In this document: positions 38,002 through 57,828 of the stretch, one piece after another
How the letters are laid out: each line of letters starts with the position of its first letter
Position numbering within the stretch: position 1 is the first letter of the stretch
Notes under the pieces: generated by a model
Databases searched by the model: none
Told to the model about the DNA's origin: nothing
The model's input: only the letters and a program-made list of their open reading frames with translations
Source: Lytechinus pictus
Taxonomy: Eukaryota
NCBI RefSeq assembly: GCF_037042905.1
Contig: NC_087251.1
Coordinates: 930,001 to 994,000 of the forward strand
Reading direction: 5' to 3'
DNA: 64,000 bases
Program-made: the position numbers and the translations under genes

Positions 38002-41000
38002 TTACTTCTTGGGCTTCAAACGGAACCAGTTTTGTTTCTTAGTATTGAGTCCAGAAGACAGAGAATTCTTGTTTGATCTATGGGAGATACCATTGCTAGC
38101 GACCTGACAATCTGCCCCAGGTGGTTTCTCTTGTAGCTGATTACCTCGCTGATTGGGAAGTGAACTGATCTGCTTTTTATTACTCACTGAATTCCTTATT
38201 TCAGGTTTGGCAAGTTGTCTTGAGGAATTAGGAGTATTGTCTGTAGCATTCAGACCCTTTCTCTGTTCAGCTTCAGAGTTTCCTTTGATATCTTCAGACC
38301 TTATCTGCTTTTCACTTGTTGAATACCTATCAGGAGACTCCTTATCCAAAACAAAAGAAAAGGTTTGTGTTGGCATGTGTCTAGTAAGGGATGAGCCACT
38401 CACAAAGTAGCTCAGTGTTGAAGAATAATTTCGGTCTGTGTAGATGTGTCTATTTGCTTCAACGTATGCTTCAACTTCCTCCAGTGTGGCCAGCGTCTGT
38501 GTAGATTTCATTTGATTTTGTACTCTTTTTGACCATTTCTTTTTGAATGATGGAAGTTCTCTTTCTGGAAGGCTCATATTATATGTCTGTGTTCTGACGC
38601 TGTTCTTTGGTTCTGTTCTTCCATCCTGTGATCCTGTCACAATGATACTTGGTTCCCTGTACCATTCTCCCATTGCCTGAATATGAGCCTCAACTTCTTC
38701 CACTGGTACATCTGTTTGACATAAACAATGAGCTCTTACTGCACAAGGGAAATCACCTGTGCTAGATGGAACCGCTGAAAGGATGGGTGAAAGTTCGTGA
38801 GGATTCAACTTCTCAAGAATCGAAGGTGATTTACTAACACATCTCTTCTCCACCATTTTCTGTGGTGTTCTTGAAGGTCTTTTGGCGTCCCCTTTATCAT
38901 GCTCAATGGGTGGGTACACAGGCTTGACTTCATCTTCCAAGGAGGGTGATAATTCCAAGTTGTAAGTCTGGGTTCTCATATCACAAGTTGCTTTTATTTT
39001 TATAAGGCTTGGTCTGGGTATTACAAAACATGGTTCCAAATAGACTTTTCCTTTTGAAGTAACATAGTCCTCCACTTCCTTGACCGTTGCATATGTCTGA
39101 GTAGATGAGGTACTAGTTTCCTCTCTAACTGGTACATCTTTCTGGAGAGCCACTACACTGCATTCTAAGTCATCTGCTTTGGCAAAAGTTGACTGTGTTG
39201 TATCTGATTCAAACCTCCTCTTAGCTTTCTTAATACTTCTGTCAACTACATTCTCCAATAATTCTTCCTCACCAGGCATCTTTCTCTTCTTTGGTGTCTT
39301 TGAAGATTTGTCAAATGCATTAACAAGTTTCTTGTGTGGGCTTTCTCTCTTTCCTGAATAAGCAATTTCCATAATTTGTTTTCTAGGCCATCCCATCTTT
39401 TTCTTAATCTCAGAAGTATCACTTGGTTGTTTGCTATGACTTTCTTTCATATCAGAATCTGCGACATCCGCAACTTGTTTTCTCTGCCTTCCCATATGTT
39501 CCTTAATCTCAGAAGACCTTTGCATCTTTTCTGACTCAGCTTCCTTTCTAGGCCTTCCCATCTTTTTCTTAATCTCAGAAGTATCACTTGGTTGTTTGCT
39601 AGGACTTTCTTTTATATCAGAATCTGCGACATCCGCAACTTGTTTTCTCTGCCTTCCCATATGTTCCTTAATCTCAGAAGACCTTTGCATCTTTTCTGAC
39701 TCAGCTTCCTTTCTAGGCCTTCCCATCTTTTTCTTAATCTCAGAAGTATCACTTGGTTGTTTGCTAGGACTTTCTTTTATATCAGAATCTGCGACATCCG
39801 CAACTTGTTTTCTCTGCCTTCCCATATGTTCCTTAATCTCAGAAGACCTTTGCATCTTTTCTGACTCAGCTTCCTTTCTAGGCCTTCCCATCTTTTTCTT
39901 AATCTCAGAAGTATCACTTGGTTGTTTGCTAGGACTTTCTTTTACATCAGAATCTGCGACATCCACAACTTGTTTTCTATGCCTTCCCATATGTTCCTTA
40001 ATCTCAGTAGACCTTTGCATCTTTTCTGACTCAGCTTCCTTTCTAGGCCTTCCCATCTTTTTCTTAATCTCAGAAGTATCACTTGGTTGTTTGCTAGGAC
40101 TTTCTTTTATATCAGAATCTGCGACATCCACAACTTGTTTTCTATGCCTTCCCATATGTTCCTTAATCTCAGTAGACCTTTGCATCTTTTCTGACTCAGC
40201 TTCCTTTCTAGGCCTTCCTATCTTTTTCTTAATCTCAGAAGTATCACTTGGTTGTTTGCTAGGACTTTCTTTTATATCAGAATCTGCGACATCCGCAACT
40301 TGTTTTCTCTGCCTTCCCATATTTTCCTTAATCTCAGAAGACCTTTGCATCTTTTCTGACTCAGCTTCCTTTCTAGGCCTTCCTATCTTTTTCTTAATCT
40401 CAGAAGTATCACTTGGTTGTTTGCTAGGACTTTCTTTTATATCAGAATCTGCGACATCCGCAACTTGTTTTCTCTGCCTTCCCATATTTTCCTTAATCTC
40501 AGAAGACTCAGCTTCCTTTCTAGGTCTTCCAATATTTTTAGCTGTATGTTCCTGACTTTGATTATTTGCCTTACTTGTTGCAATAAGATGCAGTCTCAAA
40601 GTAGTGGATTCCTTTGAACATGATAATGGGCTGTCAACTTTCCCATCTTCTTTACTTCTTTTAACACTTGAGCAAACTCTAGGCTTCCACACCTTGTTCA
40701 TGCTTTCAGGAGAGATTTGAAAATCAATATCTTGTGTACTCTTTCGCTGTTTAGAATCACTTCTGGAGATTGAATGTGCTTTTTCACCATCTGATTTTCT
40801 GTTGATGGCAGGATGTGACTTTTTCCCAAACACAGGTGAGGGTTCCTGACATTCATCAGGTTCGATTAATGTTTCATGGGTAATGGCATTGTTTGATGTA
40901 GTTTTCCAGGGACTCCGCATGTGTGAACAGCAGTACTTCTTCTTGCGTAAATCTTTTGATAGATTTAGCCCCATGGTATCCATTGAAGAGCCAATATCTG

Positions 41001-44000
41001 TCTTTCCTTGGGCCAATGTTGGACTTTGCGATGAGTGGGTAGGCTTTGGTTCCTTTCTGGTGCTTCTACTCATTCTTTCTTCAGAATTTAAGAGAATCTG
41101 GACATCATCTTTTGCTTCTTTCCACACATCATCTCCTGTCCACAATTTCAAGAGTTCAGTTTTAGTTCTTCTATATTTTGAAGATTGAACTGATTTTTTT
41201 AGTTCCTCTTTCAACAAACTTCTGCACATCTTTCCTGTTTGAGACTCTGCTTCTGAACTTGTGAATGCAGTCTGGTTATCACCTGAATCCATTACACCTT
41301 CAGCCGCTGCTGAATTTTGTGGAGTGGTTATGTAGTCTGTCTGTCCTCTATCAGATTTTTCTTTCTTTTTAATTCCCTTTTCCTTTTCCCGTGTCAATTG
41401 AGGAAATTCTCTCTGATTTTTTAACTGCCGATTGTTTTTCTGTGGCATGATTTTTCCATCACTCATTTCAGGCAATTTTGCAAGTTCTCTATTGAATAAC
41501 TCGCCTTCACTGCTGGGAGCAGGCTCTATGTTGGGAGTTACACACATCACATTGTATGTCTGCGTATATCTACTCCTTAGTTTTCCATCTTGGATGAGTG
41601 TAGAAGACAGATTACCTGGTTCTCTGTAATGCTGGCCCATGGAAGCAAGATAGGCTTCAGTTTCATTTATACTAGCAGTTGTTTGTGATGATCGATCAAT
41701 CAGCTGCACATGTCTCCCTACATCTTGCAAACTTAAGTTACTCTTACTGTCAGCTGACTTGGTAGAAGTTTTGCCAGTGTTTAAAACAATATTAGACCTC
41801 TTGTGGATTTTACCAGGGCTTTCATTAACTTTAGTATCATCCTCTAGTTCTTCCTCTGTTAACAATGATACATCAAGCTGGGCATCTTTCTCATTTCTAT
41901 GTACACCACTGGCAGTTTTATCAGGAAATTCCCTATCACCATGCTCACTCTTGCCTCTACTGCTCTCAGACATTACATCATTATCTATAGCAAAGATTTT
42001 GAGTAAGCTTTTCCTTGACTTTCCCTTTTGACAAGCTTCCTCTGTACCAATATTACATGCAATGTCAATTCCTGTTACACTGATTTCCATCTTTTTGGAG
42101 GAATGAGGTGAAATATCATTGCAAGTTGGCTTCTCCATTTGTGAATTTCCATTTCTAGATCCTGCCATTAAACCACTCAATGCCTGGTTTTGCCTCCCTG
42201 ACCTTTTAGAAGAATTTTCAATTGATGGCCTTGTATGTTTTGGTGAGCATCGATCGAGAACTGTCTCTGCTGAAATGAGCTTGGTAGATGGCATTCGATC
42301 CTTGATTATGCAAGGGGATATGGTCTGCTTTCCAACTTTATTTGGAGAGAAACTGATACCCTTGAGACCATGTTTCTGTGCTTTGTTACGTGTCATTCTG
42401 GCATCTTCCTCAAGCAACTTGGACATATCATCTCTGAATTCCTTCCAGGTTTGATCATCCTTCCAAGCAGTCAGAATTCCCAAGGAATTTCTCTTATGCC
42501 TCTTTACACTGGATGATCCTCTACGATTCACATTCATTTCACCTGTTTCTTTGATTTCATTAATGGATGCAACAGATGATTCTGCTTCATGATCTAATAC
42601 TGCTTCACCAGAATCCTTGTTTCCTGTTGCACATGCACCATCTTCATCATGTTTTGGGTCTAATTTGTTACTCTTCTTTGAGGAAGTCAGCCCAGAATCA
42701 CATGGCATTTCAATGCCTGTGGTATCAAGGATTGTTATTGGGGTGGATTTTGCCCTCGCATCTTTGTTTATGACACTTCTTGTTGTCCTCCCATCAACTT
42801 GAATAAGGCTGACCAGATCACCTTTTGCTTCTTTCCATGTAATATCATCCTTCCATGAAGTAAGAGCATGTAGCTCTTTGGATCCCTCTGCTGAAACTGT
42901 CAAATTTGTTGGCTTGTCTGGTTCCTGTGGTTTATTACTCTGCTTGTTGCAGGAAATTGGATGGGAATTCTTAGCAGGAGCATCACTGGCTGATATTTTC
43001 TGCTTGACCATATACTTCGGATTTGTTGATCCTTTTGATTTTTTCCATTTGCCAGTAAATGAATCGCGTTTCGGGGTGCGATATCTATGACATGATTGAT
43101 GTAGGGGAGAAGGTGAATGAAGGGTAAGTTTCTGTTTTTTAGGCGATGGAGAGCATAGTGCTGTATCATCTGCCAACTTTATTCCATCTTTTTTCAAAAC
43201 ACTCCTTGTTGCTCTCCCATCAATCTGAAATAGATGATCAAGATCACGCTTTGCTTCTTTCCAAGATGTGTCATTCTTCCAAGATGTCAAATCTTTCACC
43301 AAATTGCTTTGCACATGCCGTAGGCCTTCGATAGATAATGCAACAACAGGGGTTTCACTCTCCTCTGACAAATTAACAGCAGCCCTAGCAGGTTCAGAAT
43401 TACCATGAGAGTCAACCTTGGGAGATGCTAAGCTTTGAATATTAGATATCCTTTGGGGGTAAACAATTGGTTTATGATTGATATCAGGACAGCTTGCATT
43501 GATCTCGTTTTCTTTTCTCTTAGCTGGCGTTGACCCATCTTTCTTCAATCCATTCCTTGTTGCTCTACCATCAACCTGTGAGAGTAAGGAAAGATCTTGC
43601 TTAGCCTCTTTCCAGGTTGAATCATCCTTCCATGATGTCAGATCATTCAGCAAACTTTCACCTTTTTTTCTTTTTTGTCGTGTAGAGTTTGATGGATTTA
43701 TTTGTGATTCTACTTCCTGTGAATGAGAAATTGGTATTTTCATTTGATCAACATCTGCATCATCTTCATTGGACAACGTGCTCTCAGCATTGCATGATTT
43801 ACCGGAAAGTGGTAATTTCTGAGCAATCTCCTCTCTGCTCAAACCACCAGCTTTTCTTTCCTCTCCTATAGTTTTAGAAGGTGTTTTCCCAACATTCTTC
43901 AAAGCACTTCTTGTAGCCCTACCCTCAACCTGAAATAACTGAACAAGATCCTGCTTGGCTTCTTTCCATGTTGTGTCATCTTTCCAGGACGTTAAAGAAT

Positions 44001-45680
44001 GAAGCAAGTTCTTAGTTTTGACTGGAATACCTTCCGTGTCTACAGGAACTATTTGTTCCTTAATCTCTTTAGAGAGCGGTAAAGGAGAGTTAGATTTTTG
44101 GAGAGAGGAGGCATGACCATTGTTGTTCTTGGTATCACATTGTTTATTCGGAAGAGGTAATTTCTGAGCATTGTCTTCTGTGCTCAAAGCACTGGCTTTT
44201 CTTTCCTCTCCTGTAGATTTAGAAGGTGTTTTCCCAACATTCTTCAAAGCACTTCTTGTAGCCCTACCGTCAACCTGAAATAACTGAACAAGATCCTGCT
44301 TGGCTTCTTTCCATGTTGTATCATCTTTCCAGGACGTTAGAGAATGAAGGAAGTTTTTAGTTTTGACTGGAATACCTTCCGTGTCTACAGGAACTATTTG
44401 TTCCTTAATCTCTTTAGAGAGCGGTAAAGGAGAGATAGATTTTTGGAGAGAGGAGGCATGACCATTGTTGTTCTTCGTATCATAATGTTTATTCGGAAGA
44501 GGTAATTGCTGAGCATTGTCTTCTCTGCTCAAACCACTGGCTTTTCTTTCCTCTCCTGTAGATTTAGATGGTGTTTTTTCAACGTTCTTCAAAGCACTTC
44601 TTGTAGCCCTACCGTCAACCTGAAATAACTGAACAAGATCCTGTTTGGCTTCTTTCCATGTTGTATCATCTTTCCAGGACGTTAGAGAATGAAGCATGTT
44701 TTTAGTTTTGACTGGAATGTTTTCAGTGTCTACAGGAACTATCTGTTCCTTGATCTCTTTTGAGAGAGGTACAGGAGAACTGGATTCTGGAGAATCTAAG
44801 CAGGAGGAAGATTCAAGTAAAGCATTTGAGTCCAGCAGCTTCTCTGATTGGGTTGAATTATGAAAGCCATTGCTGTCATTCAAGGATGCTTGCGTTTCCT
44901 GGCTTTCTCCTGAACTAGCTGATGCTTTAGATGGTGACCTCCTCCTCCACAGGAAAGATCCAACTGAATCCAGGATTCTGCTACCCCAGCTCAACTTCAC
45001 AGATGACTGGTTGCTAGTATAATGATTAACGTTAGTTTGTGTTGACATATTTCCAGAAGCAGATTGAAGGATATCACCCTTTTCACTCAACAATGATGAT
45101 TCTTGTGCTCCAGTCTCACCTGCAAGGCTACAAGAATTAAGATCTAATTTCCTGGCCTTCTTGTATTTCAATTTATTACTAGTCTTGCTATTCTTGCTCT
45201 TCTTGGATGAGCTGGCAGCTGGAGATAGAGATGGCATGCTGAGATTAGGAAGATTTATGTTTTGAGATGGGGGTTCCAGGGTCACGTAGCAATCTAACTG
45301 TGGAAGCAGTTCCCTGCACTTGGTAACGGATAATTCTCGGGAACTGCCATGCCCAGAATTTCCCCACTCATATGTTGGTGACAATGACACTCTAGGAAAC
45401 TTCATAGTTTGAAAGGGTGTAGATTTTGGAGAACTTGAAAGAGAAGATTGTTGAGTAGACACAGGTGATAAAGGTGGAATGATTGGGGTACTGCTCTGTT
45501 TCATCTTCTTTACAGGTCTGGGTGTTGTTGGGGGAGGACGTGGACGCTTCCCTTGGGACCTAATGGCTGATCTTGCTCGAGTGCCACTCTGACCTGGGGT
45601 TCTATTCTGCTGTGTTCCAAGGGAAGATGATGATTTTGAAGTATCATATCCTTCATTGGCAGCATTTTGCTCCATAAAAC
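38002..45680 (-). CDS. G2E3/PHF7-like gene, giant terminal coding exon (~2,559 aa, repeat-rich, largely low-complexity)
   Basis: Uninterrupted ORF. Acceptor tttatttcag at 45681-45690 gives GT-TTT-ATG, completing the phase-1 Gly codon from exon 49556-49677. Stop TAA at 38002. Confidence 0.88.
39380..40535 (-). repeat. Coding tandem repeat, 165 bp / 55 aa, ~7 copies, GRPRK AT-hook-like motifs
   Basis: ACTTGGTTGTTTGCT recurs at 39421, 39586, 39751, 39916, 40081, 40246 and 40411. Confidence 0.95.
43800..44780 (-). repeat. Coding tandem repeat, 345 bp / 115 aa, ~3 copies
   Basis: TTTCCAGGACGTT at 43981, 44326 and 44671. Confidence 0.95.
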
Positions 45681-47426
45681 CTGAAATAAATATAAAGCAT
45701 AAATAAGTTCAAATAAATGATTCAATAACTCATTCTTATCTATTGGCATTAAATACATTTCTTTGCAAGAATATGATATTCTAGTCCCACATGTAGACAT
45801 CCAGGTGCAGTAGAAGGCCCTAATTTGCATCTCATTAACGCCCCTAGTACTTTAGATTCTCAAAGAATTTCTCATACACATCGACACCTGGCAGATCCAA
45901 GTAAGAATCTTGTCTGTCTTATTGTGCACTTCGGTGGCCTTTCATGTGCTGAAATTTTCATGAAACAGAATGTAATAAGAAATATTACATTACATTTTAT
46001 GAGATTTTATATTTCAAACAAGGCTCACCCCTCAATTATTTGATGACACAACAGTAGCGCAAATCTCATGCTTATGGAAAGCATATATACATATTCATGA
46101 TCTGGTGACAGTGTTCGCTTGCTGGTCTTTAATTTTGAGAGAAAATCATATAGGCCTTGTATAGGTCTTTATAACACAAATGAGACTCAACGTAGAGCGA
46201 GAAATTACATCAAATTATGTCATGCAACGGTGAATGCTCTGCTTGCAATCTCGAAACATACTCAAATTATGTTTCAAACATGTAGGACCGTAGCAAGGAT
46301 TTAAGCAATACATGATATACGTGAGGATCAATTTCGACGTTGATTTTGGAGTGTGTTTTTTTATTGACATAACCATGATAAAAAGGTGAATCTTAGGTGA
46401 GTTTTAAATTGGAATTGTTTCATTTTGGATGTAAATAATTGGACTAGTGTATGGTTTATAAATTTATTACTACCTTTATTTTGTAAGTTTCCATACCAAT
46501 AATAATAGTAATGATGGAGATTTTGGCTTCAAAATTAGTTAATTTTATACACTATTTGGCTTCAAGTGTTTATGCAAATCACGTGCGCCCAGCAATGATC
46601 GTGAGGAAGGTAATTGGGGTATAGGCCTGCATTCATGTCAGTAAATTGAGCTTGACATCAACTGAAATGGATCTTTCAGTGTAAAAAATGAAGGGATTAT
46701 TTCTTACTTTCTTGATAGTTTCCAATTAAAACAAAATAATTTCAAGCAAATATGGAAAATAAGTACTTCATATATGTAAAGATGTGAAATTTCAGAAACC
46801 TATGGGGAAGGTTTTTTCTTTTGTCCCCCTGCCAGTTAACCCTAACTGCCCGTTTTCAAATGGCGTTTAAATGTTTTTCAAAATTAATATGACTCAGGCC
46901 TGCTTTCTAATCATGTTTAATTGTCATCATACCATACTAGATATACAATGGGTATAAAACAAATGTTTAAAAAATGTTATAAAAATGAAATACCCTGAAG
47001 CCTCTCCCACATCTAAATATAGGTACAAGCCTTCTTAAGCAAATGGCAATAATTATGACTGTTGAATAAGGTATTCACTTCAGTCAGCATCACTTACTTT
47101 ATAATATCATGAAAAATAACTTGCACATGAAAGTGGAGATTGATTTGATGTTTTTCCTTTCTAACTTTTTTCCTTGCCCGACAACCCCCCCCCCCCCTTG
47201 AATGCCACGACCACCGCGAGATCTGTTTTACATGCAGCCATGAACAGAGTAAAATAATATTTTTTAATCGCTTTTATTCCTTGAGGTTATGCTTGAGAGA
47301 GTGTATAGAACTACACAAAACAAAATGAAGTCAAATTTTGCAGAAAAGTAGATCAAAATCTGTGAAAGATATGACGGCATGGTATAAGAACGGGGTGACT
47401 TATTAGAATTCCTTTTTTTTCATCCC

Positions 47427-47902: not shown

Positions 47903-49555
47903 TTTACCTCGAATTTCATAGTTCATTTCGATAGCCGAGTTGTTCCAACAAGTTACAATAGATCTGATTTGTTCTTTAAACTATTATTATTTCCTAAATT
48001 ATGAGAAATGTTCAGCACAGTAAGCTTGTTTAATCACCCTCTTATCTGATACAGCACTATTGTGACAGACAATATCTGTCAGCTTTATAGAAGAAGGCAG
48101 TGTTCAATAAGTATTATATTCTGTCAATATTTTATTCAACCACACCCCCCCCCCCCCCGAGATCTCAGCTGCCGATCCCATGAGCATTGTGAAAATTGGC
48201 ATGATAATAGTGTGGGGTGTGTTCTACAAGGCTGTATGGTTATTTTTTCCAAAATAACAAGGTTTTTTAAATACAAATTAATTATGCTAAATTATGCACA
48301 AAACATACTTTTTGCTCTAATTCACTAACTCCTAGAATGCTAATTATTGGTGTTACTAACCTTTATACCATTGCTAACAAGTATAAATGAAAACAATTCT
48401 GGTTTGAAAATAAATTTCTTATGCATTTGGGGAATTTCTTTTGTTTTTCTTTTTTTTTGCCAAATTTATAGAAGAACCTTTTTGAAGCATAATTATGCTA
48501 GAATCAATTAATTTTGGCTGACGTCAGTAAAAATAATCATATCTTTATGAATAAGATGAGAAAACACAATTCACATTGACTCTGTACACAGAATCACGTG
48601 TTGGAGCAATTTTGGGTCTGACATGCACTTATGTAATGTTGCGTAACTTTTCAACCGCATACCCAGGTCATAAATTTGGTCTAAAAAATGCGCGAGACTT
48701 CAAAGTAAAAAGTCAGCAAGTGGCGCGGTCGAAAAATTTCACGCAGCGGAATTGTCGCGGAAATTGTTGAGGGGGCGTTGATTCAACCCCCCCCCCCCCC
48801 CAGCGGCTTTAGGGTTAAAGTGTAAATACTTCATTGATATGCACCGCAGATTAAGAATGTTTTAATATAATTTTCTTGACCAATCACTATGGGAATTTAG
48901 ACTAAAAACCTGAGTATGCCAAAAATTACTGACACACAAAAGCACAATTGGGCAACTCTAGTATGATTGCTTGAAAAAGACCCATCAACCAGATAGGTCT
49001 ACCATGCATATTTTACAGGACAATTACCCATTTGGGCAATTCAATAAAATATCAACATCCAGCCCCCTCCCCCTCCCCCCATCAGTGGGTTCATCGAGAG
49101 CCCTGTCTAACAAAGAGTTACGATTGATCCGATCAATCTCAAATATTTGTCAAGAAAACAGTGAACGTATGAATATAAATTATTTCTAGAAAACAGTTTG
49201 AACAAACATATATGTTAGATGTTGATGGCTTTCCATAGTTGTGATTGATCAGATCAAGCGCAACTCTTTCTAAGTGGGGACCTTGATTTCACTTGTTTCC
49301 CAATCTGGCTCGTATGTAAAGTTCTCATGCTGTGAGATTATCAGAGTAAATTATTATGTCATGTAAGAAATAGGTAATAAAATAAAATAAGTTAAAATAT
49401 GGAGGGGGGTGGAAATACATAAAGGTTGTTTATTTCATGGAATTGCCCACTCACTTACTACTGGAATATGACAAACATTTTTCATTTATGCATACAAACA
49501 CCTGAGAGGTCAAATGGACGTTACTATAACTGGATTTTTGTAGTTGTAGACATAC

Positions 49556-49677
49556 CTCTGGTGAAAGTTGAAGTACAATCTTTACATGCCCAGTCATCTA
49601 AAGCACTTAGTAATCCACCACAAGACACATGACACCCAGCTGAACCGCATAGATCACATAGTACAATTTCCCATTGA
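49556..49677 (-). CDS. G2E3/PHF7-like exon: third zinc finger (PHD)
   Basis: QWEIVLCDLCGSAGCHVSCGGLLSALDDWACKDC; ctcag/gtatgt; phase 2 to 1. Confidence 0.92.
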
Positions 49678-49980
49678 CTGAGATGGAAAAAAAATCAAAT
49701 TGAAAACAAAAAATATCATGAGGAATACATCAACTGAGTGATATAATATTCTTTGGTTTTCTGGATCATGTTTAAGAACTCCCAGTCAAATGGCAGTCCC
49801 TTTACTGTGCATAGTACAACATACATGAAATGCACTCTGTCATTACGTCAGTACTCTTGGTTTAAAGGTAAAGGGGTGTACCAGTAGTATATTTGTTTCG
49901 TTTATATCCTCTGACACAGAGTATTGTATTTTATTACATCTAAATCAGATTAAAACCATAGTGTATGAAAGACAACCTAC

Positions 49981-50097
49981 CCTGATTGTGTAGAATACTT
50001 TCTGCCTTTTGGACATCTACATTTACTGACATCACATTGGTTGTGTCTCTCATAGAGTTCTTGGTATGCTGAACTTCCAAATTCCCAATCAGCATCC
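49981..50097 (-). CDS. G2E3/PHF7-like exon
   Basis: DADWEFGSSAYQELYERHNQCDVSKCRCPKGRKYS, matching the family motif DAxWE...AYQEL...CD...CxC; ccag/gtaggt. Confidence 0.92.
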
Positions 50098-50649
50098 CTG
50101 GAAAACAAACAAAGACTATCAATTATATATCATTTGAAAAGGGTCATATTCTAATAGTACTTTTGTCTATTTAACAGATAGGATCTCAAATATTAAAAAA
50201 CATGCATTGTAGCAAATTCACTTCATGCAAAAAAGAAAATGAGGAAATCCAGATGTCCACAGCTCAATTCTTGATTTAAGGTTTAAAAGTCACATACTGA
50301 TTTAAGAGAAGCAGTTAATGGTAAACTTTTGTTAAAATCAAAGAATTTGGAAAGAAAATTACATGCTTATACCATTTTAATGGCAAAAGGATTTAATTTG
50401 TAAGTAAATGTCCATGTTGTACACTAACTAGACTAGGGTAATAATATGCAGAACTTACAAACATTATTATTATTATTATTCAGTTGGAACATGAAAATCA
50501 ATGTGCATTTTCCTGTTCCTGGCATCCATTTATAAGAATGCTGCATTCCATCTGATAAAACCTTTATTAAAAAATAGAAAGAATATTTCTGATTTGACAA
50601 AGTCCTAAAAACTCATTAATGTATTGATAGAATACATCAATTTCCTTAC

Positions 50650-50753
50650 TTTTCTGGTAGGTAGATACCAAATTTCTTCATTTCGTCTTGAAACTCATTC
50701 TCATTGTTACAGATGGCACATCGGAAGAAGTAACCAGCACTCAAAGCTTGCAT
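50650..50753 (-). CDS. G2E3/PHF7-like exon: end of RING
   Basis: [34 protein letters not shown](K); ttcag/gtaagg. Confidence 0.92.
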
Positions 50754-51478
50754 CTGAAGACACATATGAAACAATTACTGGTAGTTTTTTTTATGTCTTT
50801 ACTATCATCCAATTTTGATAAAAACCTACCAGAGCCCCATTGCATAAAAGATACTATTATATTAACTTTGCATTCCAATGATAACTACCATGGTAATGAT
50901 GATCCACAGGCAATCAAAATCAAGGATTCCATGCAAGTTACCATTGCATGGCACAGTTACATAACTTTTATGCAATGGGGCCCAGAAAGGGTTTTTTTTT
51001 TTTGGAGGGGGGTGTTAATTCCTCTTGAAATCCAATTCAAAGAGCTTCATTAAAATCATAAAAAGATATTTGAACAATCTTGGTCAGATTTGACACTCAT
51101 GACCCTTTCCATTAGAACCTGATGAGTAGGATGTCTACCCATTCCAACCTACTGCCATTCATTTATTACAACATGTAGTACTAATGATGTCTGAAAAATA
51201 AAGACTCATTTACAATATCAATCATGACATGTACTACATCCTCATCCCAAAGTCATTGAAGTTTTAATGATAGAATATTTTGATAGAACACTATACCAGA
51301 TATGGTGAGTCTGGTGACTCATTGGTGGAGCACCTACTTCATTTATGGTAGATCCTGATCACTAGTAATGTCATAACAAAGACCTTCTTGTCAGGAGATC
51401 AGCATACAAAAATGGGTAAATGTATGTTATGTAGGGCTCACTGGAAAGTTGGTATCATAGCTAAAGTATCTACAATAG

Positions 51479-52678
51479 CAAGCCTTGAAATAAGCGGGCG
51501 CTGAGCGCAAATTCGCGCTCATAAAGCCATCAATTACGCCCATACAGCCCCAAAATCATCAAAATTTTGACGACCGGGCGCAAATATTTTCCAGGTAATT
51601 GCGCCCGCCGTGAGTGAGCAGTGAAGCCATATCATACATGTAATTTAAATATCTGAAAAGCCAAAATCAAGTAACTTTCAATTTATGATAAGCACAATTT
51701 CAAATTGCCAAGTGCGTCTTTTTTTCTGTACCGGTACCGGGGTACCATAAAAAGTGAGCTACGTCCGTCTTTTTTTTCTGTAATACATGTGCGCGCGTGC
51801 TTCCAGTAGCGGTTTTTCCATACTTCACCATATGCAATTTCTAATGCACACATTTCCAGTTGGGATATCACAATTCTGCGACATAGTAATTCGAATTGCA
51901 CAGGAGATAAATCCCTGTTCACAGCACGTACGATGTGCGAGTCTTTTATCCTGAATTTAGACTCTCCCAGAATGAAAGGCATTTTCTGTGGAGATCTGCG
52001 TTTTCAAATAACTTGTGAAAAACTTAAGTTAAGGTACATGAACCTACAATACATGTACATAGCCTGTGGCTATGTGCTGGAATTTGAATAGACTGAGTAC
52101 GATATTGATTTCATTTCTTTAACATAATTTATATACAATCCAAGTGCACCTCACTGTCACAATCACACACAAACACTCACCCACATCCGTGATTCTAACC
52201 ATGAAAAAAAAAACTTAAAAATTATTTTTTTTTTCTAAATTTATTATTATTTGATCTGAATTCTCTCTTTCTCCATCTCTCTCTTTTTTTTTTATATTTT
52301 CATTTTATTCATTTATTTAGATTTTTTTGGGGGGGTTCATTGTTCGTGGTTCATTAAAGATGAAAAATAGATAAGCCCATGTGTGTGTGGTTGTAAAGGG
52401 GATGTGGAGTGAGGGTGTAAAAACACACTTAAACATTTAAATCTGATTTCTTAAATGTCAGCCTAATACTTAGCATGCTATTCATGTACTAATTAAAAAA
52501 TTGCAGGAGCTGCGCTTACTATAAACAAATTTGCGGTGTGGTTCACCGTTATGTATATATTTTTTTAATTGCCTCCGGTTCCAGAAAATTGCCCCCGGTT
52601 CCTGTAAAAAGCCCGTGAGCCGGGAGCAATTTTTTTTTTAAATTGCCCCTGGTCTGCAGCTGCTTATTTCAAGGCTTG
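51479..52678. mobile_element. hAT-like MITE
   Basis: TIR CAAGCCTTGAAATAAGC / GCTTATTTCAAGGCTTG; imperfect 8-bp TSD TACAATAG/TACCCTAG. Confidence 0.72.
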
Positions 52679-53159
52679 TACCCTAGGTATCATTGTGTAA
52701 CCCTACATGTAGGTATTTTTTAATTCAAGGTTTATTAAAAACATGAGTCACAGCCAAATGGCTAAAATTGGTCATATATATACAAGGTACAAACAATTAA
52801 AAGACTCATTACATATTTCAAACATTAAAAAGCAGTAACCTTTGTAAAAACTTACATGAGAAATATGTATATAGTTAATAAGGCAAGAATACTAATTAAG
52901 GCAATACAAATTAATATACATGTACATAAGATAATGAAGAAGTGGTAATGTAAGAATTAAAAAAAAATAAGCAAGTTGTAAAAGATCAATAAAAATACAA
53001 ACCTGATATGTAAGTACTTATGGTATTGCTTTCAAATCAGTAATGGGTTTATTGATTGGGCATGTCTTTATTCAGGAGATCTATGAAATATGGTATGGGG
53101 CTATTTCGAAATTGATTTGTTTTACATTATCGTGCAGCCCAAAGCTGGAGTTTACTAAC

Positions 53160-53328
53160 CTGGACACATTGTCTATGGAGCCAAGTACCTTTGCAGCATG
53201 GTGTCTTGAGTACACTATTGCTTGGTGTGGTCTCTACAGGCTCCATACATATTGGACATGTCCCTTTACTTGGTGAGCAAGAGGAAGGTAATACCTTCTG
53301 AACAGGACGATGCTTCGCGCAGTAAGAT
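53160..53328 (-). CDS. G2E3/PHF7-like exon: end of extended PHD (ePHD), start of RING
   Basis: SYCAKHRPVQ...CPICMEPVETTPSNSVLKTPCCKGTWLHRQCVQ; ctcag/gttagt. Confidence 0.92.
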
Positions 53329-53424
53329 CTGAGTTAATAATAATAATAATTTCCATTTTGCCTTTCTCATAAAGACTGGCCAGGAGAGGGATGATTTGAG
53401 ACACCCCCCTTCAGATTTTGGCTG

Positions 53425-54016
53425 TTAAAGGAGAATGAAACTCTTGGAGCAAGTTAGCTTTTGTGAAAGCAGAAAAATCAAAGAATAAGATCAACAAAAG
53501 TTTGAGTAAAATAGGACTAGCAATAGAAGAGTTATGAGCATTTGAATGTCGAGATCACTAATGCTATGGAGATCCTCCCATTGGCAATGCGACCAAGATC
53601 TATGATGTCACAGATGAACAACTCTCCCCTTTTGGACGCTGAAAATATTCCCCAAAACATCTCTTATTGCTCATTCTAATCATATGACAAACGATTCATC
53701 AATGATATAATGTTGTGAAACCTCTCTACTTGTCCTCTCATAAAGAGAACACCGCACCTTGTGATAGACTCTATAAAAGTGAGAATATAAGTGAAATAAG
53801 TACTAAAGTAATGAGGGAGTTGTACGTGTGTGACATCACAGATCTTGGTCGCATTGCCAATGGGAGGATCTACATGGCATTAGTGATCTCAATATTCAAA
53901 TGCTCATAACTTTCTTATTATTCATTCAGTCTTCCTCAAACTTTCACCAATATTTTTCTTTGATTTTTCTCTTTGATATGGATTCAGCTGGTTTCAAGGG
54001 TTTCATTCTCCTTTAA
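53425..54016. mobile_element. MITE family B copy
   Basis: Near-identical to 12117-12716; TTAA flanks. Confidence 0.85.
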
Positions 54017-54573
54017 TAGCACAATCACAATTAAAATCTGCACACAAATTGTCCGCGACTTGGTCTCCATGACTGAATAATACTTTTTCCACAAACTGTT
54101 TTATCTTTCATGCCTCCAGGTCCACATATGATAATGGAAAGTTTGGAAACCTAGCATAGTTTAAAACAATTCAATAGTTTGAATCAAATCTGACATCGTA
54201 CACAAAACTAAGCAACATTTTGTGAATAAAAACAATGAGATATGACAAGCAAAAAGAAAAAGTAGACCAACAGCACAATAATATGTCCAAAGTTGCCCAG
54301 ATAAACTTGTGAAGCGATTGAAAATGACTTTTGAAGTCACTGCGATATTCCCTCATACATGTAGCATGGATCATGACATCACAACTAAATTATCATGTCA
54401 CAAGTTTTACATGTACCATGCAATTTTAGATAATTTTTTCTAGACTTGAAGCATGTAATAGTAAGGCAATATGCAGGCTACATCTACATGTAAATACTAT
54501 GGTAAAAAATACTTGGTTTTATCACACCACAAAATATCTAAATGAGGCTTTAGAAAAGTAGTAGAAAACTTAC

Positions 54574-54698
54574 ACAAAACTGTCATAGAATAGGTAGATT
54601 GCTTCCTCATCTACACCACATCCATAATGATAGATCTGATGACATGCCTTCACTGAGCAACCTACTGAAGCTCCTTTCTTCTTACAGTACTTACATTT
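54574..54698 (-). CDS. G2E3/PHF7-like exon: ePHD core
   Basis: KCKYCKKKGASVGCSVKACHQIYHYGCGVDEEAIYLFYDSF; tgtag/gtaagt. Confidence 0.93.
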
Positions 54699-55293
54699 CT
54701 ACAGTAAAATACAATGATAAACACAGGATTATAAATTTTCATCCGAAATAACTATGCCACGGGGAATAAAAACTAGAAGACTTTCAGGGCTTAAAAAAAA
54801 TTAAATCCAGCAGCGGAATGGTAAAAAAATGTTAGGGGGGCTAAATAGGCCCCCACCCCTTGGGCTAGTGGGCTAGATAGCATCTATATTCAAACCTTTA
54901 ATTAACCAAGTAAAGCTATGGAAATAATAGTACTGAGCAGGATCTCTCAATTTCCTTGCTTCAATTTATCGGCCAATAACTCTATAATCCTTATGCATAG
55001 ACATGGACGCATTGTTTCCTCTGTTACTCTACTGTAGAACTGCAGTGGGTCAAAGTAACTTAAAGTCACAAACAGAAAAAAACGGCAGCCAGATATGGGC
55101 AACAAGAGACAAGTTATTTCATACGGGCCTCTTTTATACTAATTGAAGTTCAATGTTCTGAATCCATGTTTTATGAATTGAGCATTGCTATAGTATGTCA
55201 CACAATCTTCAAAGAGCTTTATATTGATGGGTTTCAGTTCTGCTGACCTTTATCTGCACATGCTCATACTGAAATTCCTTATTGTTGACTTAC

Positions 55294-55395
55294 CAGTTTT
55301 TGTGCCCTTTTTCTCTCAGCTAAGATATCCTTGATTAAGAATCCCTCAATCCCTTCATGGCTTTCACCACGCTGACTGAGTCCACAAGCAAATAG
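55294..55395 (-). CDS. G2E3/PHF7-like exon
   Basis: LFACGLSQRGESHEGIEGFLIKDILAERKRAQKL; tgcag/gtaagt; phase 0 to 0. Confidence 0.93.
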
Positions 55396-55514
55396 CTGCA
55401 AACACACACAAATGCATCATTATATTCAAAAGAAAGTTCATCATGACATTCAGTTCATGTTGTAAAAGCAGAAAAATGAAGAACCATCCTCATGAATATT
55501 TAGTGAAATTCTAA

Positions 55515-57157
55515 AACAAGTGGAACGCCTCTGGCAGTCTCGCCTGCATTACGCGATTTAATATAGCAGCAGTGCTAACTTTGAAAACTACTATAAAATA
55601 ATCATTCACAAAAACACCATTCATATAATGACATAATACCGCGTTCACTGACCATAAATGACATTTGAACGGTGACTAAGTTAAAGGACAAGTCCACCCC
55701 AACAAGAAGTTGATTTGAATAAAAAGAGAAATATCCAACAAGCATAACACTGAAAATTTCATCAAAATCGGATGTAAAATAAGAAAGTTATGACATTTTA
55801 AAGTTTTGCTTTATTTCACAAAACAGTTATATGCACATCCTGGCTGGTATGCAAATGAGGAGACTATGACGTCATCCACTCACTATTTCTTTTGTATTTT
55901 ATTATGTCAAATATGAAATATGCTACTTTTCTCCTCATTGGCAAGTGATACAGCGATTAATTCCTCCCTGAACATGTGGCATTAGGCGGATTAGCATTGT
56001 TTAATACTATATGTTTCAGTCAAGTTGCTCCTTATTGTCAAATCTATAAAAAATGAAATATTGAATAATCCAAACAATAAAAAACAAAAGAAATAGTGAG
56101 TGATGGACATCATCGACTGACCCACCAAGTTGTGCATATCACTGTTTTGTGAAAAATAAGCGAAATTTTAAAATGTCATAACTTTCTTATTTTACATCCG
56201 ATTTTGATGAAATTTTTTAGCACTATACTAGTTTGATATTTCTCTATTTATTCAAGTCAGTATTTTCCTGGGGTGGACTTGACCTTTAAGACTTGTCAAC
56301 TACACCCATGTCCACATTTCATTCACTCTATCCATAAACTTTCAAAGTTACATGTATGATGGCAATTAAACAATTACCCCAACATGGCTTAAGTTTATTG
56401 ACCTTAACTAGACTAACCTTAACTGACCTTTGACCTTGGTTTTGTGACCTGAAACTCACAGGGGATGTTCAGTGATACTTGATTACTCTTATATCCCAAG
56501 TTTTATGAACTAGATCCATAAACTTTCAGAGTTAGGATGGTAATTCAACAAATACCCCCAACACGGCCAAAGTTCATTGACCTTAAATGACCTTTGACCA
56601 TGGTCATGTGACCTGAAACTCGTTAGGATGTTCAGTGATACTTGATTAACCTAATGTCCAAGTTTCATGAACTAGATCCATATTTTCAAAGTTATGATAG
56701 TAATTCAACAAATACTCCCAACTTGACCAAAGTTCATTGACCCTAAATAACCTTTGACCTTGGTCATGTGACCTGAAACTCGAGCAGGATGTTCACTAAT
56801 ACTTGATTAACCTTATGCCCAAGTTTCATGAACTAGGTCCATATACATTTTTAAGTTTAATATGTCATTTAAAAAACTTAACCTTCGGTTAAGATTTTGA
56901 AAATAATTCTCCCAACATGGTCCAAGTTCATTGACCCTAAATGACCTTTGACCTTGGTCATGTGACCTGAAACTCAGGCAGGATGTTCAGTAACACTTGA
57001 TTAATCTTATGTCCAAGTTTCATGAACTAGGTCCTAGTACTTTCAAAGCTATGACATAAAAAAAAAAAACGTAACCTTGCAGATTTTAATATTGGCACTG
57101 CCACCTTTGGAAAAGCAGTACCGATAGTTTCAATCTGCTATGCAGGCGAGACAAAAA
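55515..57157 (-). mobile_element. Helentron-associated (HINE-like) element with internal tandem repeats
   Basis: Subterminal IRs GTCTCGCCTGCAT (55537) / ATGCAGGCGAGAC (57140); four ~160-190-bp units containing TGACCTTTGACC; A-rich flanks. Confidence 0.7.
55681..56289. mobile_element. MITE family A copy nested in the HINE-like element
   Basis: TTAAAGGACAAGTCCACCCC...GGGGTGGACTTGACCTTTAA. Confidence 0.85.
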
Positions 57158-57287
57158 TGTAGAGCTAATTCTGATATGATATCAAGAAAACTATTTCCTG
57201 TAAATTGTAATGTGAAGAATTTCCATTGAAACAAGCAAACGCCATGAAAAACAGAACTGTATCTAAAAGATAAATTAAAGTTCTCAC

Positions 57288-57388
57288 CATACAATAGTAA
57301 TGAGCACAGATTCCACTTTCTTCATGGTGAAGGAATTTACCATAACGTTGAACTGATTGCTCAGAACTGTCACAGAACACACAACATC
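57288..57388 (-). CDS. G2E3/PHF7-like exon: pre-PHD C2HC knuckle (most 5' coding exon found; start exon not located)
   Basis: CCVFCDSSEQSVQRYGKFLHHEESGICAHYYCM; tttag/gtgaga; needs an upstream phase-1 exon. Confidence 0.9.
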
Positions 57389-57537
57389 CTAAAGAATGAG
57401 AATGTGTTCGAAAGATAAAACAAAAAACGGTAAACTGGGAGATGATTTGGGATCATAGAATTGTTGATCTGCATGTACAAACTACTAACTAGTATTCAAT
57501 GTCACATCAACTACATGTATAACTGGCTAATGATTAT

Positions 57538-57794
57538 TTCATCATCATCACCACCACCACCACCACCATCATCATCTTCATTACCATCATCATCATCATC
57601 ATCATCTTCATTACCATTACCATCATCATCATCATCTTCATTACCATCATCATCATCATCATCATCTTCATTACCATTACCATCATCATCATCTTCATTA
57701 CCATTACCATCATCATCATCATCTTCATTACCATCATCATCATCATCATCATCTTCATTACCATCATCATCATCATCATCTTCATTACCATTAC

Positions 57795-57828
<34 letters not shown>

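What the first reader, a model, noticed from the sequence alone, without database searches (positions are those of the whole stretch)
38002..57388. G2E3/PHF7-type zinc-finger E3 head fused to a ~2,560-aa single-exon, multi-repeat tail with no HECT domain
Seen: seven exons with consistent phases encode ePHD-RING-PHD and splice in frame to a 7,679-nt exon, giving at least ~2,840 codons. Known: vertebrate G2E3 ends in a HECT domain, while PHF7 is a short histone-binding E3 acting in germ-line chromatin. Inference: the tail here is a long S/K/E-rich, probably disordered scaffold with three unrelated repeat modules. That suggests a lineage-specific chromatin reader/ligase with multivalent DNA, nucleosome and LC8 contacts. 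The ORF track alone misses the fusion.
Basis: partly seen in the sequence, partly recalled or inferred. Interest (0 to 1): 0.85.

Follow-up and report, generated by a model that had tools for sequence, protein, structure and literature searches.

The report
Sea-urchin PHF7/G2E3 ligase with giant tail
This is a real, expressed sea-urchin gene in which the histone-ubiquitin-ligase zinc-finger head of the PHF7/G2E3 family is spliced to a roughly 2,560-residue disordered, repeat-rich tail instead of a HECT domain; public databases already annotate it, but only as an uncharacterized protein.

Summary
Seven small minus-strand exons (57388..49556) have AG/GT borders and consistent phases. They join in frame to a 7,679-nt terminal exon (45680..38002). 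A transcript contig joins the head exons to the big exon. Stranded RNA reads cover exons only, at similar depth, with none in the 3.9-kb intron.

The head matches solved PHF7 structures (E 7e-60) and is 48% identical to vertebrate G2E3. No HECT domain is found in the protein, the window or nearby. The tail is S/K/E-rich and predicted disordered. It carries three module types: 8 helical W-x6-WKEA modules, a 55-aa AT-hook-like array, and TQT[Y/F/L] modules.

The fusion is not new as a gene model. NCBI already annotates it in Lytechinus pictus (100% identical), L. variegatus, Strongylocentrotus purpuratus and Diadema. Sea stars have long-tailed versions too.

The LC8 reading is weakened: 34 of 37 echinoid TQT motifs carry a hydrophobic +2 residue, which is disfavoured for LC8.

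Verdict: a lineage-specific variant of a known E3 family, of moderate interest.

The parts
58068..58104 (-). Candidate first coding exon (exon 0): ATG plus 12 codons plus 1 base (MQLYNALLCIKE-G), donor GT
   Evidence: Found. An in-frame TGA lies 18 nt upstream of the ATG. Orthologue N-termini end ..LEG / ..LEKG before CCVFC. Adding it gives an 8,556-nt CDS of 2,851 aa. Transcript contigs carry 88 nt (X15 record 8, read off directly) and about 100 nt (X1 record 1, by arithmetic from its length) upstream of exon A that do not lie in 57391-57500.
57288..57388 (-). Exon A: start of the ePHD (CCVFC...HYYCM), carrying the first four zinc ligands
   Evidence: AG/GT borders and phase. Junction 55395>57288 has 23 (X19) and 24 (X20) reads. 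The NCBI model P0002 starts only at this exon's last codon.
55294..55395 (-). Exon B: ePHD middle (LFACGLSQRGESHEGIEGFLIKDILAERKRAQKL)
   Evidence: aligned to PHF7 and G2E3.
54574..54698 (-). Exon C: second half of the ePHD
   Evidence: Pfam zf-HC5HC2H, E 3.9e-9, 37 bits against a cut-off of 29.1. Junction 53328>54574 has 16/31 reads.
53160..53328 (-). Exon D: ePHD-RING linker and first half of the RING
   Evidence: Pfam zf-RING_2, E 1.5e-4, 22.4 bits, below the 27.3 cut-off. Single copy in the genome.
50650..50753 (-). Exon E: second half of the RING (FFRCAICNN...)
   Evidence: X1 contig piece 50649-50753; alignment.
49981..50097 (-). Exon F: RING-PHD linker carrying the W-E pair that contacts the E2 in PHF7
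   Evidence: W218/E219 (S. purpuratus numbering; PHF7 W231/E232) are invariant in 12 of 12 heads. Single copy in the genome.
49556..49677 (-). Exon G: C-terminal PHD finger
   Evidence: Junction 49677>49981 has 15/23 reads. The X1 contig joins this exon to exon H.
38002..45680 (-). Exon H: 7,679-nt terminal exon, 2,559 codons plus TAA, encoding the disordered tail
   Evidence: 100% identical to NCBI LOC129265183. RNA depth 24-34 at its 5' end. Composition and hydropathy.
45523..45594 (-). Basic stretch just after the PHD (GTRARSAIRSQGKRPRPPP); the only part of the tail alignable to sea stars
   Evidence: The BLASTP alignment of P0004 with Patiria P0011 runs through it. It is 76-78% identical to S. 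purpuratus.
41041..44706 (-). Eight W-modules (L..LTSW.DD..WKEAK.DL..L...DGR.TRS); the first three lie in a 345-nt tandem array (43807-44778)
   Evidence: Invariant residues W11 D14 W17 K18 E19 D23 L27 R33 R36. AF2 predicts helix-kink-helix, pLDDT 75.5. Echinoid-only.
39253..40554 (-). AT-hook-like array: 55-aa unit x about 7, each with GRPRK and GR(Q/H)RK cores and an SPSK site
   Evidence: TRF 39380-40507, period 165, 6.8 copies, 98%. 15 cores by pattern. Units listed. No Pfam AT_hook hit for this protein.
41539..41691 (-). First TQT module (SSQT..ETEAYL..Y.EP..YTQTYN)
38347..39111 (-). C-terminal cluster of three TQT modules ([ST]QT-x-EVEAY[VI]-x6-Y-x-EP-x17-25-TQT[YF])
   Evidence: 60-82% identical to S. 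purpuratus. AF2 mean pLDDT 36, with short helices at the EVEAY segments.
57539..58066 (.). 528-bp GAT/ATC-type microsatellite filling most of intron 0, starting directly at the exon 0 donor
37648..37653 (-). First candidate polyadenylation hexamer downstream of the TAA stop

Best explanation
One expressed minus-strand gene. It is the single-copy echinoid orthologue of the ancestral PHF7/G2E3 RING-type E3 ligase gene. Eight or nine coding exons encode about 2,851 residues.

Shown: the exon structure, the splicing of head to tail, transcription from the minus strand, family membership of the head, absence of a HECT domain, and the repeat anatomy and taxonomic range of the tail.

Inferred by homology to mouse PHF7: the ePHD binds nucleosomal DNA, the RING-linker-PHD clamps a UBE2D-type E2, the PHD holds the histone H3 tail, and the enzyme mono-ubiquitinates histone H3 and/or H2A.

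Inferred from sequence only: the 2,560-residue tail is an intrinsically disordered scaffold. It tethers or concentrates this ligase on chromatin through many weak contacts. These are AT-hook-like GRPRK cores for AT-rich DNA, helical W-modules ending in a G-R-x-T-R-S basic motif for an unknown partner, and TQT[Y/F/L] modules for another partner. Proline-directed (CDK-type) phosphosites in every repeat unit would switch binding with the cell cycle. Each lineage has amplified a different module, so valency is tuned by tandem duplication.
For: Gene structure: (AG/GT borders, phases, one open frame). One search gives the transcript contig that joins all head exons to exon H, the junction reads, equal exon depth, an empty intron and a single strand.

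Head: phmmer to PHF7 structures 8jwj/8jwu, E 7e-60 and 1e-59, over residues 15-294 of the S. purpuratus orthologue. 48% identity to turtle G2E3, E 5e-91. 69 invariant columns in 12 heads, including 27 Cys/His and the W-E pair. In PHF7 the E232R mutation of that pair abolished E2 binding (Lee 2023, section read).

Single copy: exons D and F each find only this locus in the 812-Mb genome.

The zinc-finger head is the active part of G2E3 and its HECT is non-functional (Grau-Bove 2013 citing Brooks 2008; passages). A HECT-less form can therefore still be a ligase.

Tail disorder: S 13.6%, K 11.3%, E 7.8%; mean hydropathy 0.383, below the charge-hydropathy boundary of 0.426. AF2 mean pLDDT is 36 for the last 387 aa. 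No Pfam, PDB or Atlas match.

Constraint on the tail: the frame is kept open in echinoids and sea stars. There are conserved islands of 60-82% identity within a 35-50% background. Nine W-module columns are invariant from Diadema to Lytechinus.

Motif enrichment against shuffles of the tail: TQT 7 against 0.52 (0 of 2000 shuffles reach it); G[RW][PQH]RK 15 against 0.01; [ST]P.[KR] 20 against 5.0 (0 of 500). The last is also above expectation in four other echinoderm tails.

Precedent: Drosophila Phf7 has a fast-evolving novel C-terminus that is needed for function (Yang 2021, passages).
Against: No biochemical step was tested. Several PHF7 contact residues differ here, read from the alignment against the residues named. 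K192>M, Y193>Q and P205>A lie in the RING-E2 face. Y245>H and F262>H lie in the proposed H3 site. Four of the six ePHD basic-patch residues are not conserved in place.

The Pfam AT_hook model gives no hit on the window's protein or on one repeat unit, even at E<=10. It passes its cut-off only in the S. purpuratus orthologue (19.4 against 17.4 bits).

Motif counts are inflated by tandem copies, which are not independent events.

Sea-star tails share none of the three modules, so no single tail mechanism is conserved across echinoderms.

AF2 on the tail used only 5 rows, about 3 of them informative, so low pLDDT is weak proof of disorder.

Tissue and stage of the RNA runs are unknown to me.
Confidence: 0.6

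Rival explanations
1. LC8-hub reading. The TQT motifs are dynein light chain LC8 sites. LC8 dimers zip two tails together into a ladder, as in ASCIZ/ATMIN, making the ligase dimeric and multivalent.
For: The TQT anchor is 13-fold enriched (7 against 0.52; 0 of 2000 shuffles). It is conserved at orthologous places in five echinoid proteins, with up to 13 copies in Diadema setosum. It lies in a region of low pLDDT. Positions -3 and -4 fit the rules in several copies, for example CDMRTQTY and NSVRTQTY. The genome holds 18 full-length intronless LC8 genes. Weak motifs can bind when clustered (Jespersen 2019, passages).
Against: +2 is Y/F/L/V in 6 of 7 copies here and in 34 of 37 across five echinoid proteins. 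The LC8 motif study states that hydrophobic residues are not well accommodated at +2 and lists 'Hydrophobic +2' among non-binder classes. It also reports that many TQT peptides do not bind (section 9 read). One copy has an aromatic at -2 (RSRYTQTY) and one has a proline at -2 (RHMPTQTF), both disfavoured. The strict conservation of an aromatic after TQT, and of the EVEAY..Y.EP helix between paired [ST]QT motifs, suggests a different and larger recognition unit.
Confidence: 0.25
2. Low-constraint tail. The ligase head does all the work. The tail is a fast-drifting, slippage-prone, low-complexity appendage whose repeats have no specific partners. At most it supplies nuclear localisation signals and bulk.
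For: Tail identity between L. pictus and S. purpuratus falls to 35-50% with large indels, while the head stays at 86-100%. Repeat unit and copy number differ by genus: 55 aa in Lytechinus, 33 aa in S. purpuratus, no AT-hook cores in Diadema. Sea-star tails cannot be aligned. No domain is detected anywhere in the tail.
Against: An open frame of 1,300-2,560 codons is kept after the head in 9 echinoderm proteins. Nine W-module columns are invariant between Diadema and camarodont urchins. The TQT-module cluster and the last nine residues NWFRLKPKK are 60-100% conserved. The fly precedent shows that a fast-evolving tail can be essential.
Confidence: 0.12
3. Two genes, or a different splicing pattern. 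The big ORF is transcribed on its own, or the zinc-finger exons normally splice to another 3' end, such as HECT exons further downstream.
For: The NCBI L. variegatus isoform X2 starts inside the RING, so N-terminally shorter products are modelled. Only 15 of 139 joints were shown, so minor isoforms cannot be excluded.
Against: A transcript contig carries the head exons and exon H in one piece. Depth is 0-0.09 across 46072-46919, directly upstream of exon H, so no promoter or read-through lies there. Exon depths are alike. No HECT match lies in the window or within 33 Mb on this contig. None of the 78 other ORFs of 75 aa or more in the window has a real Pfam match. The same fusion is modelled independently in six or more echinoderm species.
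Confidence: 0.03

Closest known systems
Mouse/human PHF7 (PDB 8JWJ, 8JWU; Lee et al. 2023, PMC10760634)
   Same: Same three-part head, ePHD-RING-linker-PHD, alignable end to end (E 7e-60). All zinc ligands and the W-E E2-contact pair are kept. PHF7 ubiquitinates H3K14 (and H2AK119). Its ePHD binds nucleosomal DNA and its RING-linker-PHD wraps UBE2D2.
   Different: PHF7 is about 300-380 aa with at most a short tail; this protein adds about 2,560 residues. Several E2-face and H3-site residues differ (K192M, Y193Q, P205A, Y245H, F262H; one search read). According to Yang 2021 (passages), PHF7 proper exists only in amniotes and some Diptera, so this gene is not a PHF7 orthologue in the strict sense.
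[quoted passage not shown]
   Same: The closest head by sequence: 47-50% identity over about 290 aa. It is the presumed ancestral gene of the family. Its ligase activity lies in the zinc fingers. It is the only family member found in this genome.
   Different: G2E3 is about 700-750 aa and ends in a divergent HECT domain (Pfam HECT at 475-746 of turtle G2E3). Here there is no HECT in the protein, the window or nearby. Of the 28 shorter relatives found, 21 carry HECT and all 21 are vertebrate. The nemertean, brittle-star and Ciona proteins do not carry it.
Drosophila Phf7
   Same: A conserved three-zinc-finger module joined to a lineage-specific, rapidly evolving C-terminus with no known domain. 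That C-terminus is functionally required for germline masculinization (Yang 2021, passages).
   Different: The fly tail is about 40% of a small protein. It arose independently and has no described repeat arrays. No sequence comparison was made here.
ASCIZ/ATMIN and other multivalent LC8 clients
   Same: A cluster of TQT anchors in a disordered region.
   Different: The +2 position here is almost always aromatic or aliphatic rather than P/D/E. The motifs come in pairs around a conserved EVEAY..Y.EP helix. Binding was not tested.
HMGA-type AT-hook proteins
   Same: Repeated G-R-P cores flanked by K/R, with a proline-directed phosphosite beside each core. Regulation of HMGA by CDK is recalled from memory, not taken from a call.
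   Different: The residue before the core is M/I rather than R. The Pfam AT_hook model does not score the window's units. The units are 55 aa long, 98% identical at the DNA level, and 6.8 in number.

Membership tests
PHF7/G2E3 zinc-finger E3 family (head) | N-terminal extended PHD (Pfam zf-HC5HC2H) | tested here: met
   Exon C alone: E 3.9e-9, 37 bits against a cut-off of 29.1. P0002: 56.3 bits. P0004: 62.7 bits.
PHF7/G2E3 zinc-finger E3 family (head) | Full-length collinear match of ePHD-RING-linker-PHD to a solved family member | tested here: met
   phmmer of the S. purpuratus orthologue P0004 (the L. pictus head is 86-100% identical to it): residues 15-294 match 8jwj_A residues 10-285, E 7e-60. 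BLASTP against G2E3 gives E 5e-91.
PHF7/G2E3 zinc-finger E3 family (head) | All zinc-binding Cys/His of the three fingers conserved | tested here: met
   27 invariant Cys/His columns across 12 heads from echinoderms, vertebrates, nemerteans and Ciona. For the window's own protein, the first four ligands lie in exon A.
PHF7/G2E3 zinc-finger E3 family (head) | Linker W-E pair that contacts the E2 (PHF7 W231/E232) | tested here: met
   W218/E219 are invariant in 12 of 12 heads. The role of the pair comes from Lee 2023, section 8.
PHF7/G2E3 zinc-finger E3 family (head) | Ubiquitin-ligase activity on histones | not testable with these tools
   Needs an in vitro ubiquitination assay.
G2E3 in the strict sense | C-terminal HECT domain (PF00632) | tested here: not met
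   No HECT hit in P0001 or P0002-P0005. None of the 89 genomic HECT matches lies in C7:930001-994000. None appears in 78 other window ORFs. Positive control: turtle G2E3 scores 40.8 bits.
PHF7 in the strict sense | Short protein (about 300-380 aa) ending soon after the PHD; an amniote or dipteran gene | tested here: not met
   The protein has 2,851 codons. The taxon is an echinoid (names). Family range as given in Yang 2021.
AT-hook (PF02178) | G-R-P core with flanking basic residues that scores over the Pfam cut-off | tested here: inconclusive
   Pattern G[RW][PQH]RK occurs 15 times. There is no Pfam hit on the window's protein or on one unit at E<=10. The S. purpuratus orthologue scores 19.4 bits against 17.4; L. 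variegatus scores 16.2, below the cut-off.
LC8 (DYNLL) client motif | TQT anchor in a disordered segment | tested here: met
   7 TQT against 0.52 expected; pLDDT 36.
LC8 (DYNLL) client motif | Favourable flanks: +2 is P/D/E and not hydrophobic; -2 not aromatic; no internal proline | tested here: not met
   +2 is Y, Y, Y, Y, L and F in 6 of 7 copies. -2 is Y in one copy and P in another. Rules from Jespersen 2019, section 9.
LC8 (DYNLL) client motif | Physical binding to LC8 | not tested
   The complex-prediction job was never accepted (queue full; see Tried and rejected).

The most novel reading that the evidence does not exclude
The echinoid tail holds two undescribed interaction modules. One is the helical W-x6-WKEAK...DGR-x-TRS module, whose basic G-R-x-T-R-S end also occurs once directly after the PHD in sea stars. 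The other is the paired [ST]QT-EVEAY-Y.EP-TQTY module. Together with the AT-hook-like cores they would turn a PHF7-type histone ligase into a CDK-switched, multivalent chromatin binder. Its valency would be retuned in each lineage by tandem duplication. A possible use is in germ cells of animals whose sperm keep histones rather than protamines (the sperm-chromatin point is recalled from memory, not taken from a call).
Probability: 0.15. Interest if true: 0.6.

Novelty: new variant of a known kind. Interest (0 to 1): 0.35.

Why it matters
The result places the constant and the variable parts of the PHF7/G2E3 family. The three-finger ligase head is ancient, single-copy here and highly conserved. 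What follows it is swapped by lineage: a catalytically dead HECT domain in vertebrates, a short novel tail in flies, and a 1,300-2,560-residue disordered tail in echinoderms.

Among the relatives retrieved, HECT occurs only in vertebrates. This suggests, but does not prove, that the HECT fusion is a late addition.

The urchin protein is a natural case for asking how a long disordered scaffold directs a histone E3. It sits in a species that is used as a genetic model.

As a gene model it is already in RefSeq, so the gain is in annotation and hypothesis, not discovery. One practical point: the L. pictus RefSeq protein appears to lack 45 N-terminal residues, including four zinc ligands of the ePHD.

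Tried and rejected
1. Complex prediction of the LC8 dimer (alignment A1 of six genomic LC8 copies) with the tail segment window:38518-38637 was never accepted. One search gave no usable answer. No result exists.

2. Run search: no listed holder is on record as RNA. The runs labelled 'RNA?' are guesses. I laid two of them plus two raw RNA runs of the same species label.

3. PF26054, listed among the precomputed domains of the orthologues, is not in the local Pfam copy, so I cannot say what it is.

4. The Pfam hits Reprolysin and ATP-synt_Eps on the tail have no stretch that passes on its own. I read them as repeat-summation artefacts.

5. The PDB hit of the S. purpuratus 33-aa array to the TALE-like protein BurrH (E 5e-9) is not reproduced by the window's tail (0 hits). 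I read it as a periodicity artefact.

6. The W-module profile hit P0040 (E 1.4e-4) is a TIR/NB-ARC repeat protein. Its per-stretch scores are below 10 bits. Rejected.

7. An SQ/TQ cluster (ATM/ATR target) reading is rejected: [ST]Q occurs 25 times against 26.6 expected.

8. The ESM Atlas gave no usable hit for the C-terminal 387 aa or for the W array.

9. The earlier-findings index had nothing.

10. Searches for LOC590024, LOC129265183 and LOC121419430 found 0 papers.

11. Wang et al. 2017 (PMC5454262) is not held. It may already describe the urchin gene.

12. KEN-box and K[KR].[KR] counts are not clearly enriched.

Full report
**1. What is in the sequence**

The minus strand carries a stop-to-stop frame of 2,568 codons at 38002..45708. 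Upstream of it, seven short open stretches encode cysteine/histidine-rich peptides. I located their borders from the sequence. The exons are 57388-57288, 55395-55294, 54698-54574, 53328-53160, 50753-50650, 50097-49981 and 49677-49556. Each is preceded by AG and followed by GT, and the large exon begins at 45680 after TTTCAG. Joined, one frame is open for 2,838 codons plus the terminal TAA; the other two frames hold 121 and 302 stops. The coding exon has a higher G+C content (0.39-0.41) than the introns (0.33-0.36) and is strongly A-rich on the coding strand.

**2. Is it one transcript?**

I searched the run index with the 5' end of the big exon. I then laid two contig sets and two raw stranded RNA-seq runs of the same species label on 44800-57500.
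- A 1,954-nt contig of run X1 lies, with contiguous record coordinates, on 44800-45678, 49554-49677, 49981-50096, 50649-50753, 53160-53328 and 54574-54698. This is the head spliced to the tail. The 2-nt offset at the 45680/49556 joint arises because both borders read AC on the plus strand.
- Raw reads of X19/X20 cross 49677>49981 (15/23), 53328>54574 (16/31) and 55395>57288 (23/24). All these joints have GT..AG ends on the minus strand.
- The raw-read rows for the other three junctions were not among the 15 joints shown of 139 in all (124 not shown). Those junctions rest on the contig.
- Depth is 24-34 in exon H and 0-0.09 in 46072-46919. Corrected for exon length, it is about 20 in exon G. 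All exon reads have the first mate on +.
- So there is no separate start upstream of the big exon in these samples. A processed DNA copy cannot explain the contig, because exons D and F each occur once in the 812-Mb assembly.

**3. The 5' end**

Exon A starts in phase 1 without an in-frame ATG. A candidate first exon lies at 58104-58068: ATG, 12 codons and one base, donor GT, with an in-frame TGA 18 nt upstream. Its product, MQLYNALLCIKE-G, resembles orthologue N-termini that end ..LEG / ..LEKG before CCVFC. With it the CDS is 8,556 nt, or 2,851 aa. The X15 contig carries 88 nt upstream of exon A that do not lie in the adjacent intron. The X1 contig carries about 100 nt there, inferred from its length. 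I did not lay that junction, so exon 0 is inferred. Intron 0 is almost wholly a 528-bp GAT-type microsatellite.

**4. Already annotated**

A search with the tail returned four proteins:
- NCBI 'uncharacterized protein LOC129265183 [Lytechinus pictus]', 2,806 aa, 100% identical over the whole query;
- L. variegatus LOC121419430 X2, 2,554 aa, 90% identical;
- S. purpuratus LOC590024, 2,620 aa;
- one metaclust protein.

The L. pictus model contains head and tail but starts at the Met that is the last codon of exon A. It therefore lacks 45 residues, including the first four zinc ligands.

A search with the head among long proteins added two Diadema species (2,373 and 1,916 aa) and four sea stars: Asterias amurensis and A. 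rubens, Acanthaster ('mucin-12-like') and Patiria, at 1,599-2,046 aa.

In print I found no paper naming the three LOC identifiers. A fish paper cites Wang et al. 2017 for high g2e3 expression in sea-urchin testis (passages). That paper is not held.

**5. The head**

- phmmer of the S. purpuratus orthologue against PDB sequences gives PHF7 (8jwj, E 7e-60; the PHF7-UBE2D2 fusion 8jwu, 1e-59), then PHF6.
- BLASTP against turtle G2E3 gives 48% identity over 289 aa.
- An alignment of 12 heads (echinoderms, three vertebrate G2E3, two nemerteans, Ciona) has 69 invariant columns. These include 27 Cys/His and the W-E pair.
- Lee et al. 2023 (sections 5, 8 and 9 read) show for PHF7 that the C-terminal PHD binds the H3 tail and that RING-linker-PHD wraps UBE2D2. 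They show that E232R abolishes binding, that the basic ePHD binds nucleosomal DNA, and that H3K14 is the preferred site.
- Some PHF7 contacts differ here (K192M, Y193Q, P205A, Y245H, F262H, and part of the basic patches; read). Specificity may therefore differ.

**6. No HECT**

Pfam finds no HECT in the protein or its orthologues. It does find one in turtle G2E3. A six-frame HECT scan of the whole genome gave 89 matches. None is in the window, and the nearest on this contig lie about 33 Mb away. None of the 78 other ORFs of 75 aa or more in the window has a real Pfam match.

Among 28 shorter relatives of the head, 21 carry HECT and all 21 are vertebrate G2E3. The 7 without are two nemertean proteins, a brittle-star protein, a Ciona protein and three fragments.

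Published work states that the G2E3 HECT domain is non-functional and that two of the zinc fingers carry the ligase activity (Grau-Bove 2013, passages).

**7. The tail**

Composition is S 13.6%, K 11.3% and E 7.8%. Mean hydropathy (0.383) is below the charge-hydropathy boundary (0.426). AF2 on the last 387 residues gives a mean pLDDT of 36, with short helices only at the EVEAY segments; the alignment was shallow. No PDB, Pfam or Atlas relative was found.

There are three module types.

(a) W-modules.
- Eight copies, with nine invariant columns that hold even against Diadema.
- Predicted helix-kink-helix, pLDDT 75.5.
- The first three copies sit in a 345-nt tandem array.
- A profile search of 1.84 billion representatives found only echinoid orthologues and one spurious repeat protein.

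(b) AT-hook-like array.
- A 55-aa unit x6.8, 98% identical at the DNA level, with GRPRK and GR(Q/H)RK cores.
- S. purpuratus has a 33-aa unit, and Diadema has no cores.
- Pfam AT_hook scores only the S. purpuratus protein above its cut-off.

(c) TQT modules.
- Four modules built as [ST]QT-x-EVEAY-x6-Y-x-EP-x17-25-TQT[Y/F].
- D. setosum has amplified this module with a 155-aa period, to 13 TQT motifs.

Full CDK-type sites [ST]P.[KR] number 20 against 5.0 expected, with one in each repeat unit. They are above expectation in four other echinoderm tails as well. Sea-star tails have none of the three modules and align only through a short basic stretch after the PHD.

**8. LC8**

The TQT anchor is enriched: 7 against 0.52, and 0 of 2000 shuffles reach it. 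But the LC8 motif study (abstract, passages and section 9 read) reports that many TQT peptides do not bind. It also reports that hydrophobic residues at +2 are poorly accommodated. Here +2 is Y/F/L in 6 of 7 copies, and Y/F/L/V in 34 of 37 across five echinoid proteins.

I prepared a complex prediction with genomic LC8, but the tool never accepted it. I therefore treat LC8 binding as a rival with odds of about 1 in 4.

**9. Verdict**

The gene is real and correctly read by the first stage. It is a member of the PHF7/G2E3 head family but fails the defining HECT feature of G2E3 and the size and taxon features of PHF7. It is best described as the echinoid orthologue of the ancestral gene carrying a lineage-specific disordered tail.

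The most likely mechanism is a histone-directed RING ligase tethered to chromatin by a multivalent tail that may be switched by phosphorylation. That mechanism is inferred, not shown.

It is already annotated as uncharacterized, so the interest is moderate.

Noticed in passing
G000 contigs C2 (16.58-16.63 Mb, 29.39-29.41 Mb, 31.5 Mb), C11 (23.28-23.32 Mb), C6 (22.08 Mb); loci L009-L014: The genome holds 18 full-length, intronless dynein light chain LC8 genes, mostly in tandem arrays. Each covers the Pfam Dynein_light profile from positions 1-3 to 86 in one open frame. The six that I read are 89 aa long and 90-92% identical to one another. This is an unusual copy number for a usually low-copy hub gene.
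   Followed up: partly
window 57288-57388 and 58068-58104: The NCBI L. pictus protein (P0002) begins at the last codon of exon A. It therefore lacks about 45 N-terminal residues, including four zinc ligands of the ePHD. RNA junction reads show that exon A is in the mRNA.
   Followed up: partly
window 53280-54127, 55400-57095, 47344-48191, 49040-49463: Intronic stretches show very high depth on both strands in RNA and contig runs, many loose ends and cross-joints between them (for example 47795 to 55888 on opposite strands). These are probably dispersed repeats or transposon fragments. A 160-bp x2.6 tandem repeat lies at 56426-56844.
   Followed up: no
window 57539-58066: A 528-bp GAT/ATC-type microsatellite begins directly at the donor of the candidate first exon. 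It reads as poly-Asp/Gly/Asn in the gene's frame. This may be why automated models missed exon 0.
   Followed up: no
G000: C1:26599713, C1:27815384, C6:3890098, C3:16228444, C3:48370413, C21:7422106, C8:40811174: Several single open frames of about 601-615 aa give weak HECT matches, mostly to profile positions 209-297 (42-292 at the first listed locus). They may be the divergent 'G2E3-like' HECT-only family described by Grau-Bove 2013. None lies near this gene.
   Followed up: no
window 16486-17445 (minus strand): A 320-codon open frame rich in H, K, R, E and Q, with no Pfam match. It could be an exon of a neighbouring gene.
   Followed up: no
window 28615-29064 (plus strand): A tandem repeat that reads as GNCSELVRYF(P/S)DLL.. 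units. Its Pfam hits have no stretch that passes on its own and look like repeat artefacts.
   Followed up: no
P0003 (L. variegatus isoform X2): This modelled isoform starts at the Met that opens exon E, inside the RING. It would lack the ePHD and half of the RING. Whether such a transcript exists was not tested.
   Followed up: no
PMC9128100 (sea cucumber): [quoted passage not shown] I could not check whether it is the orthologue of this gene.
   Followed up: no
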